DNA of 64,000 nt from Bacteroidota bacterium (GCA_963169745.1 CAUJCU010000015.1:146005-210004); one strand, 5' to 3'. Shown: positions 23,866-26,446, numbered from the stretch's first letter. The notes: generated by a model not told the origin, from the sequence alone. Program-made: numbers and translations.

Positions 23866-24348
23866 ATGAAGAGACTTTTTTTAATAAGACACGCAAAAGC
23901 CGAACCACCAAGTTTTCAAAAAAATGATTTTGATCGTGAACTAACAGATAAAGGAAAAGCAGATGCCGAAAAAATGGCTGTATTTATTAAGAATATACAA
24001 CCTTGTCCGGATCTAATTTCCACTAGTACAGCAAAAAGATCCTGGAGTACTGCTAAGCGCTTTGCAAATGCATACAAAATTGATAAAGCAAAAATACATT
24101 TAGCGCCTGAAATATATCAGGCATCGTCAGATTCTCTTTTGGAATGGATAAGGAGTATGAATAATGAGCACGAAACCCTAATGCTTTTTGGTCATAATCC
24201 ATCTTTAAGTCAATTAGCGTCTTTTCTGAGTCAGAATATGGACATCGAAATGGCTCCTTGTGGCGTATGTATGCTCCAATTTGAATTAGAGAAATGGGAA
24301 TATTTAGCCTATCAAAATGGGAAATTAAAATTATATTATTGTCCTTAA
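23866..24348 (+). CDS. histidine phosphatase superfamily protein, SixA-like phosphohistidine phosphatase
   Basis: LIRHAKAE catalytic RHG-type motif at the N-terminus, LFGHNPSL second His motif, 160 aa. Confidence 0.7.
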   Translation: MKRLFLIRHAKAEPPSFQKNDFDRELTDKGKADAEKMAVFIKNIQPCPDLISTSTAKRSWSTAKRFANAYKIDKAKIHLAPEIYQASSDSLLEWIRSMNNEHETLMLFGHNPSLSQLASFLSQNMDIEMAPCGVCMLQFELEKWEYLAYQNGKLKLYYCP

Positions 24349-24742
24349 AGTCTTACCATTTTTTTTGAAGAAACTATAAAAGGAGATTTTATTTTTCCCT
24401 TTACTTAATTTCTTCTATGTCTATTCTGAATTTAAGGGATTATACCTATTATTTCTACTAAATTATTCTTTATAAAAATGGGTAATCCTTATCTTTTAAT
24501 GATCTTAATGAAAACACATTTAAACAAACTTCCTTCTTTACTTTCTCAGTACCTATAATTAGATTCTATTTGATGTGTGTTTTTAGAAGAAAATGAATAA
24601 TAACTCCTAACAAGTCAATTTCGTTCATGATAGTACCGGGTATTAGATCTACAGCTTTTAAGTTTGTATATAAATAGAAACTGTATCTGATGTATGTTAA
24701 CCCAAAAGAATTCTGACTAACGTAAATAATATCTACTGTATA

Positions 24743-26105
24743 TCAATTAGTTATAATCCCCAATTCTTCATTAGTCAGTCCAAATTTAGTAATTTGTTTT
24801 TGTATTCTTTTTACTATTCCCAACTTTCTTTTCTGGTCTAAAAATAAATAACCTTCCGGGTTGATGTATTGCACATTTTTTACAACCATGTTCCATATAA
24901 TTACTCCAAATTTTCGGGCAGTAGCACTTATTGCAGAAACTCTACCTTTTCTAAAATTTATTCTTTGGAAAAAGTCTCTTAAAGGTGTTGAGTCTTTAAG
25001 ATTTCCTATGGCATTAGCAGCATTTCGAAATGCTATTTTCAGTCTGTTACTCCCTTTAGGCACTTTACTTGAAAGTACTTTGCCACCACTAACTTTGTTG
25101 TTTGGAGCAAGTCTGAGCCAGGAGCAAAAGTGTTTTGCAGTTGGAAACTTTTTTATTCCTTCTATACCTACTTCACTCATTATGGCAAGCACTGTAGCGT
25201 GACTCATGCCTTCTATTGCCAGCAAATCTGTACTTTCAAACATTTGATACGATTTTAGATTAAGATCTATGTCTTTGGGCGTATTTTTATTGATTCGCTT
25301 ATGCGGTTTTGAATCTATGTGGTGCTGTTTTTTATTTTCATCATTGTTAATGATTTCATCGAGCATTAATGCAATCATCTTGTCACATTCCATCATTTTA
25401 TTTTGGATGTGGTCATAAGTATCGAGTTCCTGCTGGAGTGTAAATAAATAATCTGTTCTTCCATTGCTTTGTAAAGCTTTGGCAATTTCCTCTTCACTCT
25501 TGCGACAGTTGGCATGTCGAAGTGCTGCAAGCTTTTGAGGATTTGCTTCTCCATCGCAGATAGCTCTGATAATGCGTAGTCCGGTAAGTCCACAAACATC
25601 ATTGACCACCACATCTAAGCGCAAATTTAAGAGTCTCAAATATTTCTGCATTTTTTTGCTTGTAGAAGCTGCATTGTGCAAGAGATTGGCTCTGTGTCGG
25701 CAAAAGGTTCTGAGTTGCTCTGTTTTTCCGTCTAGGAGGAAACTACTGCTCAAAAGTCCTAAGCTGTGCAACATTTGAATCCATTGGCAATCTTTAATAT
25801 CGGTCTTTTTGCCCTTGATGTTTTTGGTAAACTTTCCATTGCAAAGGATAACATGGAATCCCTTTGAGATTAAAACGGCATAAAGATTTTTGCCAGTAAG
25901 TACCGGTGCTTTCCATGGCTATGGTTCTAATCTTGTGCTCGTGAAGCCAATCGGCCATTTCATAAAGGTCTTGGTTAAATACGCCAAACGCTCTCACATC
26001 ATTTTCATGTTGCCCTACAGCTACCCAGTGGGAGCGACTACCAACATCAATTCCTGCGGCTAAAGGATTGACAATGTCCATTGGTATTTTTTCTTCTTCT
26101 ACCAT
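24743..26105 (-). pseudogene. IS110-family DEDD recombinase/transposase disrupted by a 1-nt frameshift in a homopolymer (two ORFs 25794..26105 and 24743..25774)
   Basis: The N-terminal ORF ends ...ESTGTYWQKSLCRF... The overlapping frame continues ...NLYAVLISKGFHVILCNGKFTKNIKGKKTDIKDCQWIQMLHSLGLL..., which is the conserved IS110 sequence. Removing one A from the A5 run (minus-strand caaaaatc; plus-strand T5 at 25887..25891) restores ESTGTYWQNLYAVLISKGF. Confidence 0.75.
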
Positions 26106-26446
26106 AAAATAATATTTTATTAAAAATGCTCTACGAAGATGTGCTTTTGGCTAAGTAAATATTCTGAACGGGGTTGTTCTGTTTTCACAAAACACCGCCA
26201 CTGAAGTCATCGCAAACATCTCAACCAGGATTGCGCCCCTACTCGAGGTAACAGTTCTAAAATCGGCCTTGCAAAGAGCAAGTCAAATATAAGGATTTGT
26301 AATTTTTAAATAACTCCCTACGTTAGCTTGAGAAGTCAATGGAGGCGGTATAGGGAGGATTGCTGGTAACACTTTATTAAAGCAAAGTAGGATGTCATTA
26401 CGTATTTGTTACCATACAGAATGATGATTGCGAAACTATTTTTTTA
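26106..26446 (-). ncRNA. candidate IS110 bridge-RNA (seekRNA)-encoding 5' leader of the recombinase
   Basis: Inference only. A 340-bp non-coding region lies immediately upstream of the recombinase start. Its composition is distinctly more GC-rich and less homopolymeric than the surrounding intergenic DNA (26161..26400). It contains potential stems (e.g. CTCCCTA…TAGGGAG, CCGCC/GGCGG). IS110-group elements are known to encode their bridge RNA in exactly this position. Confidence 0.25.

What the first reader, a model, noticed from the sequence alone, without database searches (positions are those of the whole stretch)
26106..26446. GC-rich 340-bp leader upstream of the IS110 recombinase: candidate bridge RNA (seekRNA)
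IS110-group elements are known to encode a structured non-coding bridge RNA in the 5' non-coding end, immediately upstream of the recombinase. Its loops specify target and donor DNA. The stretch 26161-26400 stands out compositionally from all other intergenic DNA in this window, which is AT-rich and homopolymeric. It contains self-complementary segments (CTCCCTA/TAGGGAG; CCGCC/GGCGG; GGTAACA/TGTTACC). If it is a bridge RNA, its loops would reveal the target motif of this IS. The element could also be a compact programmable recombinase candidate once the frameshift is repaired.
Basis: partly seen in the sequence, partly recalled or inferred. Interest (0 to 1): 0.6.

Follow-up and report, generated by a model that had tools for sequence, protein, structure and literature searches.

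The report
Bridge RNA of a Bacteroidota IS110 element
The stretch upstream of the frameshifted IS110 transposase does encode a conserved, folded guide ("bridge") RNA whose loops match the element's own ends and its insertion site; this is an expected feature of the family, here in a little-described lineage with some unusual wiring.

Summary
The insertion sequence spans 24711-26360 on the minus strand (1650 bp). 26361-26446 is host DNA, and the GGTAACA/TGTTACC hairpin lies there.

Inside the 255-nt left end, a covariance model places a roughly 158-nt RNA at 26122-26279. It has a closing stem and two stem-loops, each with a large internal loop. In 43 independent metagenomic copies, 97% of cells pair (32-53% in slid controls) and 14 pairs show compensatory changes. 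Three conserved G·U pairs fix the RNA strand.

- Loop 1, 3' strand (GCAAUCC) copies the left junction and covaries with it.
- Loop 1, 5' strand is complementary to the right flank, weakly.
- Loop 2, 3' strand (UCAGAA) copies the right end tip, with covariation.
- Loop 2, 5' strand copies left-end positions 22-29. This polarity is not predicted by the IS621 model.

The core is AA, and the target is roughly CGTTAnnnGC-AA-TTCTAAAA. A Bacteroidota-type TAnnTTTG promoter box sits just upstream of the RNA.

This copy carries an extra A in the transposase gene and one broken stem pair. It is a new member of a known kind, of moderate interest.

The parts
24711..26360 (-). Whole IS110-family insertion sequence, 1650 bp. 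An AA core dinucleotide is present at both junctions (26361/26360 and 24712/24711).
   Evidence: Multi-copy genomes share sequence only from ATCC... to ...GTCAGAA. The closest relatives L177 and L178 align exactly between these points. The tandem junction in L007 reads GTCAG-AA-TTCC.
26347..26360 (-). Left-end tip, ATCCTCCCTATACC (the right donor half-site). Positions 2-4 (TCC) are copied in the loop 1 3' strand.
   Evidence: Left-end position 3 (C or T) is identical to RNA position 132 in 100% of 56-61 distinct pairs, MI 0.59-0.60.
26332..26339 (-). Left-end positions 22-29, TTGACTTC. This subterminal site is identical in sequence to the 5' strand of loop 2.
   Evidence: 6.52 of 8 identities for own pairs versus 4.73 for shuffled pairs, 0 of 5000 shuffles as high. 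Columns 5-8 are 92-100% identical, with MI up to 1.41. These are the top signals of the unbiased MI scan.
26320..26326 (-). CTAACGT, the left arm of a 7-bp subterminal inverted repeat. Its partner is ACGTTAG near the right end.
   Evidence: GCTAACG is invariant in alignment A1. ACGTTAG is invariant in right ends.
26284..26291 (-). TATATTTG, a match to the Bacteroidota housekeeping -7 promoter element (TAnnTTTG). It ends 4 nt before stem P1.
   Evidence: At least 5 of 6 positions match at this fixed location in 84% of 74 distinct leaders, against 7% after shuffling. That TAnnTTTG is the Bacteroidota -7 consensus is from my own knowledge.
26122..26279 (-). Bridge RNA core: stem P1 (GCUCU/AGAGC), stem-loop 1, stem-loop 2, then AUUUUU. 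The 5' and 3' ends are inferred, not mapped.
   Evidence: Covariance model R1 gives a single hit in the window, 26120-26282 on the minus strand, 160.8 bits, E = 1.2e-39. Consensus structure with covariation.
26254..26263 (-). Loop 1 (target-binding loop), 5' strand AUUUUAGAAC. [quoted passage not shown]
   Evidence: 8 of 8 match to the right flank of the closest relative L177. The family mean is 4.0 of 8 at the predicted register, against about 2.2 background. In the window only TTCT matches.
26229..26237 (-). Loop 1, 3' strand GGCGCAAUC(C). It is identical to the left flank GC + core AA + left-end TCC, that is a left-target guide plus a handshake-like extension.
   Evidence: Identity at left-flank positions -3 to -1 is 0.79-0.90, and at left-end positions 1-4 it is 0.92-1.00. 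Variant guides (AAUAG, CUUCA, GUGUA, CCA) match their own flanks.
26200..26215 (-). Loop 2 (donor-binding loop), 5' strand UUGCGAUGACUUCAGU.
   Evidence: Covaries with left-end positions 22-29 by identity.
26143..26169 (-). Loop 2, 3' strand GUUCAGAAUAUUUACUUAGCCAAAAGC. UCAGAA equals the right-end tip including the core.
   Evidence: 100% identity to right-end positions -6 to -1 in 34 distinct pairs. Variants TTAGAA, TTATAA, TTAGGA and TCAGGA are mirrored in the RNA.
24743..26105 (-). IS110-family recombinase gene, disrupted by one extra A. The plus-strand T5 run at 25887-25891 replaces the T4 run seen in relatives.
   Evidence: The repaired 453-aa protein is 94% identical to the intact proteins P0001 and P0002. 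The alignment shows the single-base insertion.
24711..24742 (-). Right end, 32 nt. The tip is ACGTTAGTCAGAA, with the ACGTTAG repeat arm at 24717-24723.
26361..26446 (-). Host left flank. It holds a hairpin, TGGTAACA (26407-26414) with TGTTACCA (26364-26371). The last bases GTGTTACCAGCA form the left target half-site.
   Evidence: The same flank plus the same insertion is present in three other samples.
24701..24710 (-). Host right flank TTCTTTTGGG, the right target half-site.
26239..26239 (-). G where the family has C. This breaks a G-C pair in the hairpin of stem-loop 1.
   Evidence: The pair is G-C in 21 of 22 and 42 of 42 sequences and is flagged as non-canonical. Contigs from other samples end exactly before this base.

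Best explanation
**What it is.** 26106-26360 is the left non-coding end of a 1650-bp IS110-family insertion sequence. It encodes a roughly 158-nt bridge RNA (seekRNA) on the transposase strand.

**Inferred expression.** Transcription starts at a Bacteroidota-type promoter inside the left end and gives an RNA closed by stem P1.

**Inferred guide logic.**
- Loop 1 reads the target. [quoted passage not shown] - Loop 2 reads the donor. [quoted passage not shown] Its 5' strand matches left-end positions 22-29, next to a 7-bp subterminal repeat (CGTTAG). That repeat also occurs in the left target half-site and is probably read by the protein.

**Inferred reaction.** The DEDD/Ser recombinase, loaded with this RNA, would recombine the circle junction (..GTCAG-AA-TCC..) with sites of the form CGTTAnnnGC-AA-T...

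**Shown here:** element boundaries, RNA structure with covariation, and guide-DNA covariation.

**Inferred only:** transcription, RNA ends, protein binding, and strand chemistry.

**This copy.** It is probably not autonomous, because it has a frameshift and one broken stem pair.
For: **Protein family**
- PF01548 + PF02371.
- NF033542 'IS110 family RNA-guided transposase', 202.7 bits.

**Boundaries**
- Multi-copy genomes and close relatives.
- AA core from the tandem junction.

**RNA structure**
- RNAalifold: 34 pairs, 21 with compensatory changes.
- Independent metagenomic set: 97.2% of cells paired versus 32-53% in slid controls, 14 pairs with double changes, 0 of 500 shuffles as high.
- Three near-invariant G·U pairs in stem GGCCG/CUGGUU would be C·A on the other strand, so the RNA strand is fixed.
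- The same architecture is detected upstream of 36-41%-identical transposases in other phyla. The stems are kept by compensatory changes and the loops differ.
- Segment identity to L177:

| Segment | Identity |
|---|---|
| RNA core | 94% |
| Transposase CDS | 90% |
| Left-end positions 41-81 | 51% |

**Guides**
-, as listed under parts.

**Promoter**
- Promoter box conserved at a fixed position.

**Literature**
- Architecture and guide logic of IS110 bridge RNAs (PMC11208160, PMC11208158).
- Reversed guide order in IS1111-type seekRNAs (PMC11187229).
Against: - There is no expression, binding or activity data.
- No Rfam family matches.
- The protein is only marginally similar to IS621 and ISCro4 (E about 0.003).
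- Right-flank pairing is weak: 4.0 of 8 on average, and own versus shuffled pairing gives 280 of 5000 shuffles as high.
- The loop 2 5' strand is identical, not complementary, to the top strand of left-end positions 22-29. Both loop 2 strands would then pair with the same DNA strand, 20 nt apart, which the IS621 model does not predict.
- Nothing in the RNA covaries with the strongly conserved CGTTA of the left flank.
- A junction-spanning promoter, typical of the family, is not conserved here (right-end sequences).
- Alignment A4 was fitted to the model, which inflates the pairing counts.
Confidence: 0.85

Rival explanations
1. The conserved structure is only a cis-acting 5' leader of the transposase mRNA, controlling translation or stability or attenuating transcription. 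It is not a trans-acting guide.
For: The RNA lies directly between a promoter box and the start codon, and a U-run follows P1. In ISPpu10 and IS621, leader elements do regulate expression (preprint 10.64898/2026.03.19.712850).
Against: A purely regulatory leader would not need loop strands that copy the flanking target and both element ends and covary with them. The terminator scan finds no canonical terminator.
Confidence: 0.07
2. The conservation reflects DNA-level features, such as transposase-binding sites or inverted repeats of the left end, and not an RNA.
For: Left-end positions 1-41 behave as a cis-acting end. They are kept in the natural mini-element of L007 and contain the subterminal repeat.
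Against: Helices are maintained by compensatory changes and by strand-specific G·U pairs. The minus strand folds better than shuffles and the plus strand does not. The mini-element lacks positions 82-239 yet keeps both ends, so the core is not needed in cis.
Confidence: 0.03
3. The RNA gene is real for the family, but this particular copy is a dead relic. The transposase is frameshifted and the RNA carries a destabilising substitution, so nothing functions at this locus except perhaps in trans.
For: The extra A at 25887-25891 splits the ORF. The G at 26239 breaks a pair conserved in 21 of 22 and 42 of 42 sequences. The insertion is fixed at this locus in three other samples.
Against: A homopolymer length error or a collapsed repeat assembly could produce both changes. 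Contigs from other samples break exactly before 26239, which suggests several slightly different copies. The RNA otherwise scores as high as intact copies (160.8 bits).
Confidence: 0.5

Closest known systems
IS621 bridge RNA (IS110 group; Durrant et al. 2024, PMC11208160; Hiraizumi et al. 2024, PMC11208158)
   Same: - The RNA is encoded in the long left end, upstream of a DEDD/Ser recombinase.
- It has two stem-loops, each with an internal loop.
- One loop matches the target and the other matches the donor ends.
- A dinucleotide core is included in the guides.
- A 3' extension of a guide matches the other DNA (handshake-like).
- The size is 150-180 nt.
   Different: - The protein is barely alignable (E about 0.003; 453 aa versus 328).
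- Guide order is inverted: here the top-strand-pairing strand is 5' in loop 1.
- The core is AA, not CT.
- There is no 5' stem-loop.
- The promoter is a host-type box inside the left end, rather than one rebuilt across the circle junction.
- The loop 2 5' strand copies left-end positions 22-29 instead of complementing the left-end tip.
- A 7-bp subterminal repeat replaces the 2-3 bp one.
IS1111-type seekRNAs (ISEc11, ISPa11, ISKpn4; Siddiquee et al. 2024, PMC11187229)
   Same: - The top-strand match lies 5' of the bottom-strand match.
- Subterminal inverted repeats of at least 7 bp are present.
- Target choice is very specific.
   Different: - Those RNAs lie downstream of the transposase gene, and their proteins are 330-350 aa.
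- Here the RNA is upstream, the right end is only 32 nt, and the protein is 453 aa.
- The paper notes rare IS1111-like exceptions with an upstream non-coding region.
ISEc21 seekRNA (IS110 type, upstream non-coding region; PMC11187229)
   Same: - The non-coding region is upstream.
- Short ends suffice in cis (left end 29 bp, right end 16 bp), comparable to the natural mini-element seen in L007.
   Different: In ISEc21 the top-strand match is 3' of the bottom-strand match. Here the order is the opposite.
ISPpu10 bridge RNA (preprint 10.64898/2026.03.19.712850)
   Same: - It lacks the IS621 5' stem-loop.
- Its guide polarity is reversed relative to IS621.
- It inserts next to genomic hairpins.
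- The window copy likewise sits in the 3' arm of an 8-bp hairpin.
   Different: - The ISPpu10 RNA is driven by the junction promoter.
- In this family the left half-site is not generally part of a hairpin: 5.83 versus 5.95 matches in the control.

Membership tests
IS110-family bridge RNA / seekRNA | Encoded in the long non-coding end next to a DEDD (PF01548) + PF02371 recombinase gene | tested here: met
   for the protein. Left end 255 nt, right end 32 nt. RNA at 26122-26279, on the same strand as the transposase gene.
IS110-family bridge RNA / seekRNA | Conserved secondary structure with two stem-loops carrying internal loops, supported by covariation | tested here: met
   21 of 34 pairs compensatory; 97.2% paired versus 32-53% in slid controls, 0 of 500 shuffles as high. 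Deep relatives keep the stems.
IS110-family bridge RNA / seekRNA | [quoted passage not shown] | tested here: met
   The left half is strong and covarying. The right half is weaker: 8 of 8 in L177, family mean 4.0 of 8 versus 2.2 background.
IS110-family bridge RNA / seekRNA | The other loop carries strands matching both donor half-sites next to the core, on opposite strands | tested here: inconclusive
   The right-end tip is matched perfectly, with covariation. The left-end tip is not matched by loop 2. Instead the 5' strand is identical to left-end positions 22-29, implying pairing to the same DNA strand.
IS110-family bridge RNA / seekRNA | Handshake-type bases: a guide extended by bases matching the other DNA partner | tested here: met
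   The loop 1 3' strand continues as UCC, equal to left-end positions 2-4, with perfect C/T covariation. The loop 2 3' strand continues with U, equal to right-flank position +1 in 62% of cases.
IS110-family bridge RNA / seekRNA | Promoter rebuilt across the right-end/left-end circle junction drives the RNA | tested here: not met
   The would-be -35 hexamer in the right end (TTTACG, AAAACG, TAAACA, TTGACG...) is not conserved. A TAnnTTTG box inside the left end is conserved instead. This concerns expression and does not affect the guide mechanism.
IS110-family bridge RNA / seekRNA | The RNA binds the recombinase and is required for recombination | not testable with these tools
   Needs RNA sequencing, RNP purification and recombination assays.
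IS110 group (as opposed to IS1111 group) | Long left end, short right end, RNA upstream; bottom-strand match 5' of top-strand match; subterminal repeat absent or 2-3 bp | tested here: inconclusive
   The location criterion is met. The guide order is the IS1111 one (compared with PMC11187229). There is a 7-bp repeat ACGTTAG/CTAACGT. No phylogeny with ISfinder references was possible.
Rfam families (release 15) | Match to a curated covariance model | tested here: not met
   No hit in the leader at E up to 10. No hit at gathering score in eight related loci.

The most novel reading that the evidence does not exclude
This very abundant lineage would be a distinct wiring variant of bridge recombination. 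It occurs in Bacteroidota and, more distantly, in Chloroflexota and Cyanobacteria.

Its features would be:
- a 5'-located RNA with IS1111-like guide order;
- a constitutive host-type promoter instead of a junction promoter;
- a CGTTAG motif shared by the left target, the right end and (inverted) the left end, read by the enlarged 453-aa protein;
- a donor loop whose two strands both pair with the same DNA strand (the right-end tip and left-end positions 22-29).

The last feature could mean that the donor is recognised subterminally or as a single-stranded or copy-out intermediate.
Probability: 0.3. Interest if true: 0.6.

Novelty: new member of a known kind. Interest (0 to 1): 0.4.

Why it matters
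- It confirms that reading raw sequence can flag bridge RNAs.
- It corrects the boundaries of the element.
- It derives from sequence alone a full parts list: ends, AA core, target motif CGTTAnnnGC-AA-TTCTAAAA, four guide segments and a promoter.
- The recombinase family is far from the characterised IS621 and ISCro4 enzymes and is extremely common in Bacteroidota.
- Such a family could supply orthogonal programmable recombinases that work natively in Bacteroidota.
- The odd polarity of one donor guide is a concrete, testable deviation from the IS621 mechanism.
- As biology of this window, it is one decaying insertion sequence copy.

Tried and rejected
- **Rfam.** Scans of the region (E up to 10) and of eight related loci found no family.
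- **Plasmid collection.** The search returned only 67%-identical IS110 genes in Chondrinema, with no annotation of the RNA.
- **Right-donor guide at left-end 41-47.** I asked whether left-end 41-47 (TAGGGAG) is a right-donor guide, or forms a conserved hairpin with left-end 4-10. Rejected: own pairs give 3.64 nt and permuted pairs 3.57.
- **Hairpin gating of the target.** I asked whether the left target half-site is generally the 3' arm of a hairpin, as for ISPpu10. It is not a family feature (5.83 versus 5.95). It is true only for the window copy.
- **Sigma-70 junction promoter.** A promoter of the form TTxACG-17 nt-TATACC fits a few copies, but the -35 part is not conserved. The generic scan finds nothing relevant.
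- **Complement of the loop 2 5' strand elsewhere in the element.** Only non-covarying coding-sequence hits were found.
- **Alternative core inside GTCAG.** This is incompatible with the observed left junctions.
- **Empty site.** Contigs carrying the neighbouring epimerase gene all already contain the insertion, and they break inside it.
- **Boundaries in a distant relative.** The three Methylotuvimicrobium copies sit in repeated palindromes, so their ends are ambiguous.
- **Unbiased MI scan.** It found no RNA partner for left-end positions 5-12 or for the CGTTA of the left flank.

Full report
**1. The observation**

The minus strand carries an IS110-family gene split into two ORFs. ORF 26105-25794 matches PF01548 and ORF 25774-24743 matches PF02371. 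The upstream stretch 26106-26446 has no ORF of 40 aa or more.

It is not GC-rich in absolute terms:

| Region | GC |
|---|---|
| 26106-26446 | 0.367 |
| Whole window | 0.347 |
| 26161-26400 | 0.41 |
| RNA core | 0.44 |
| AT-rich spacer 24349-24710 | 0.26 |

About 3.5 inverted 7-mers are expected by chance in 340 nt (my estimate). The single-sequence fold is only mildly unusual: z = -1.97 on the minus strand and +0.62 on the plus strand.

**2. Boundaries of the element**

Removing one A gives a 453-aa protein. It is 81-94% identical to the best 120 proteins listed, nearly all 426-490 aa, mostly from Bacteroidota; 7159 proteins score E up to 1e-20. It scores 202.7 bits on NF033542, 'IS110 family RNA-guided transposase'.

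I fetched 56 genomic loci and 120 metagenomic loci. Copies within one genome, in different contexts, share sequence only from ATCC(T/C)CCCTATACC... to ...ACGTTAGTCAGAA. The two closest relatives align to the window exactly between these points.

In the window the element is 24711-26360 (1650 bp). The left end is 255 nt (26360-26106) and the right end is 32 nt (24742-24711).

26361-26446 is therefore host DNA.

In L007 a full copy is followed directly by a roughly 100-bp mini-element made of left-end positions 1-50 joined to the right end. The junction reads GTCAG-AA-TTCC. Together with left junctions (..GCA|ATCC) and right junctions (..CAGAA|T), this indicates a two-base AA core at both ends, analogous to the CT core of IS621 (PMC11208160).

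**3. The RNA**

An alignment of 22 distinct left ends is strongly conserved from position 82 onward. RNAalifold gives the following structure:
- a closing stem P1, GCUCU/AGAGC;
- stem-loop 1, GGCCG/CUGGUU, with an internal loop and a hairpin;
- stem-loop 2, GAGAUGU/ACAUCUU, with a larger internal loop and a variable hairpin.

Of 34 pairs, 21 show compensatory changes.

A covariance model built from 18 of these sequences hits the window once, at 26120-26282 on the minus strand, with 160.8 bits. It also finds 46 copies among 100 metagenomic loci that were not used for training.

On those copies:
- 97.2% of cells pair, against 32-53% when partners are slid;
- 14 pairs have double changes;
- no shuffle out of 500 reaches the observed values.

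That alignment is model-fitted, so the counts lean towards the structure.

Three near-invariant G·U pairs in stem GGCCG/CUGGUU would be C·A on the other strand. The transcript is therefore on the transposase strand.

The model also detects the same architecture just upstream of transposases only 36-41% identical, in Chloroflexota, a cyanobacterium and others. There the stems are rebuilt by compensatory changes and the loops differ.

Between the window and L177, identity by segment is as follows:

| Segment | Identity |
|---|---|
| RNA core | 94% |
| Transposase CDS | 90% |
| Left-end positions 41-81 | 51% |

**4. Guides**

I extracted 65 distinct junctions and compared each loop strand with the DNA it might read.

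*a) Loop 1, 3' strand (GCGCAAUCC).* It equals the left flank at -3 to -1 (identity 0.79-0.90), plus A, plus left-end positions 2-4 (0.92-1.00). Left-end position 3 (C or T) is mirrored perfectly. Lineages with variant guides carry matching flanks: AAUAG, CUUCA, GUGUA/GCGUA and CCA. [quoted passage not shown] It is extended by bases that match the donor, like the handshake guides of IS621 (PMC11208158).

*b) Loop 1, 5' strand (AUUUUAGAAC).* It is complementary to the right flank. The match is 8 of 8 in L177 (TTCTAAAA). The family mean is 4.0 of 8 at the predicted register, against about 2.2 elsewhere. This is only weakly specific.

*c) Loop 2, 3' strand (GUUCAGAAU).* It equals the last six bases of the right end in all 34 distinct pairs. 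Right-end variants are mirrored in the RNA.

*d) Loop 2, 5' strand (AUGACUUC).* It is identical to left-end positions 22-29 (TTGACTTC). Own pairs give 6.52 of 8 identities and shuffled pairs 4.73, with 0 of 5000 shuffles as high. The variants ATTTC, ATTAC, ATTTT, ACAAA, ACTAA, ACTCC and AGTTA are all mirrored.

An unbiased mutual-information scan recovers these signals as the top meaningful ones and nothing else convincing.

The target logo is (A/C)CGTT(A/G)nCnGC-AA-T(T/C)n(T/A)AAAA. CGTT is 86-98% conserved.

In the window the left half-site is GTGTTACCAGC-AA and the right is TTCTTTTGGG. This is a slightly off-consensus site.

**5. Comparison with known systems**

In IS621 and ISEc21 the strand that pairs with the bottom strand lies 5' in the loop. 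In IS1111-type seekRNAs the top-strand match lies 5' (PMC11208160, PMC11187229). Here loop 1 has the IS1111 order, although the RNA is upstream of the gene.

The element also has a 7-bp subterminal inverted repeat. ACGTTAG lies 6 nt from the right tip and CTAACGT lies at left-end positions 35-41. The same CGTTAG occurs in the left target half-site at the equivalent distance from the core. No RNA position covaries with it, so I infer that the protein recognises it.

The polarity of guide (d) is unexplained by the IS621 model. Both loop 2 strands would pair with the bottom strand.

**6. Expression (inferred)**

A TAnnTTTG box is the Bacteroidota housekeeping -7 element (my own knowledge). It sits at a fixed distance, ending about 4 nt before P1, in 84% of 74 leaders, against 7% after shuffling.

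The junction-spanning promoter typical of the family is not conserved here. A U-run follows P1, but no canonical terminator is found.

**7. State of this copy**

- The transposase gene has A5 where relatives have A4 (plus-strand T5 at 25887-25891).
- The RNA has G for C at 26239, breaking a pair conserved in 21 of 22 and 42 of 42 sequences.
- The same insertion at the same site is present in contigs from three other sequencing runs. All of them end just before 26239. This pattern suggests several slightly different copies and leaves room for assembly error.

**8. Verdict**

This is a member of the known class of IS110-family bridge RNAs (seekRNAs) in a lineage far from the characterised enzymes (IS621 and ISCro4, E about 0.003) and not covered by Rfam.

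Three features are departures worth testing: the guide order, the internal promoter, and the subterminal donor guide. None changes the kind of system. Confidence that it is a bridge RNA is 0.85, and interest is 0.4.

Noticed in passing
L007 2887-2989 (also L008): A roughly 100-bp mini-element sits in tandem right after a full copy and shares a single AA with it. It consists of left-end positions 1-50 fused to about 20-45 nt of the right end. It looks like a MITE-like non-autonomous derivative. It also shows that the element's own right tip (CGTTAGTCAG-AA) can serve as a pseudo-target.
   Followed up: partly
Left flanks of L010, L094, L115, L152, L158, L174 (30 nt before the element): Unrelated metagenomes share nearly the same left flank, (A/G)GGTTTTTAGAC(G/A)(A/G)ACTG(C/A)CGTTA... 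A second recurrent class reads ..CTGC(G/A)G..AGC(C/T)G..AAACGTTAGC(A/G)GCA. The element seems to home to one or two widespread repeated sequences of unknown nature. There is no Rfam match and no empty copy in the fetched loci.
   Followed up: partly
Protein search; loci L007, P0006, P0051: The transposase is unusually conserved: 81-94% identity over 453 aa in the best 120 proteins listed. Some of the bins are labelled Fervidobacterium, Caldisericia and Atribacteria. This indicates either very recent horizontal spread or binning contamination.
   Followed up: no
L027-L030, between stem P3a and the loop 2 5' strand: More distant relatives (59-69% identity) carry an extra hairpin of about 30 nt (AAAAGGACUUUCUGCUACAACAAAAAGUCCUU) inserted in the donor loop. 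L030 also has insertions in the left end and in the stem-loop 1 hairpin.
   Followed up: no
L034, L042, L033, L035, L045: The RNA model hits the leaders of 36-41%-identical transposases in Chloroflexota, a cyanobacterium and a contig binned as Nanohalarchaeota, at 59-63% GC in the Chloroflexota copies. The RNA architecture is therefore much older than the Bacteroidota lineage.
   Followed up: partly
L179-L181 versus window 26275-26320: Two of three other samples with the same insertion differ from the window in left-end positions 44-86. One difference is GCATT for GCTCT in the 5' strand of P1. All contigs stop at the same base, 207 nt after the epimerase stop codon.
   Followed up: partly
window 24349-24710: A 362-bp spacer at 26% GC lies between the element's right end and the histidine-phosphatase gene (23866-24348). 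Only chance-level Rfam hits fall there, for example an MS2-operator-like hit at 24476-24505, E = 0.09.
   Followed up: no
L039, L040, L043 (Methylotuvimicrobium buryatense 5G): Three copies of a 39%-identical relative sit inside palindromic repeats: ACCGTTCGCCCT on the left and AGGGTGAACGGT on the right. This is a REP-like target, and it makes the element's ends ambiguous.
   Followed up: partly
L177 1-2199: The closest intact relative of the element lies next to a D12-class methyltransferase gene and an AlwI-type restriction endonuclease gene.
   Followed up: no
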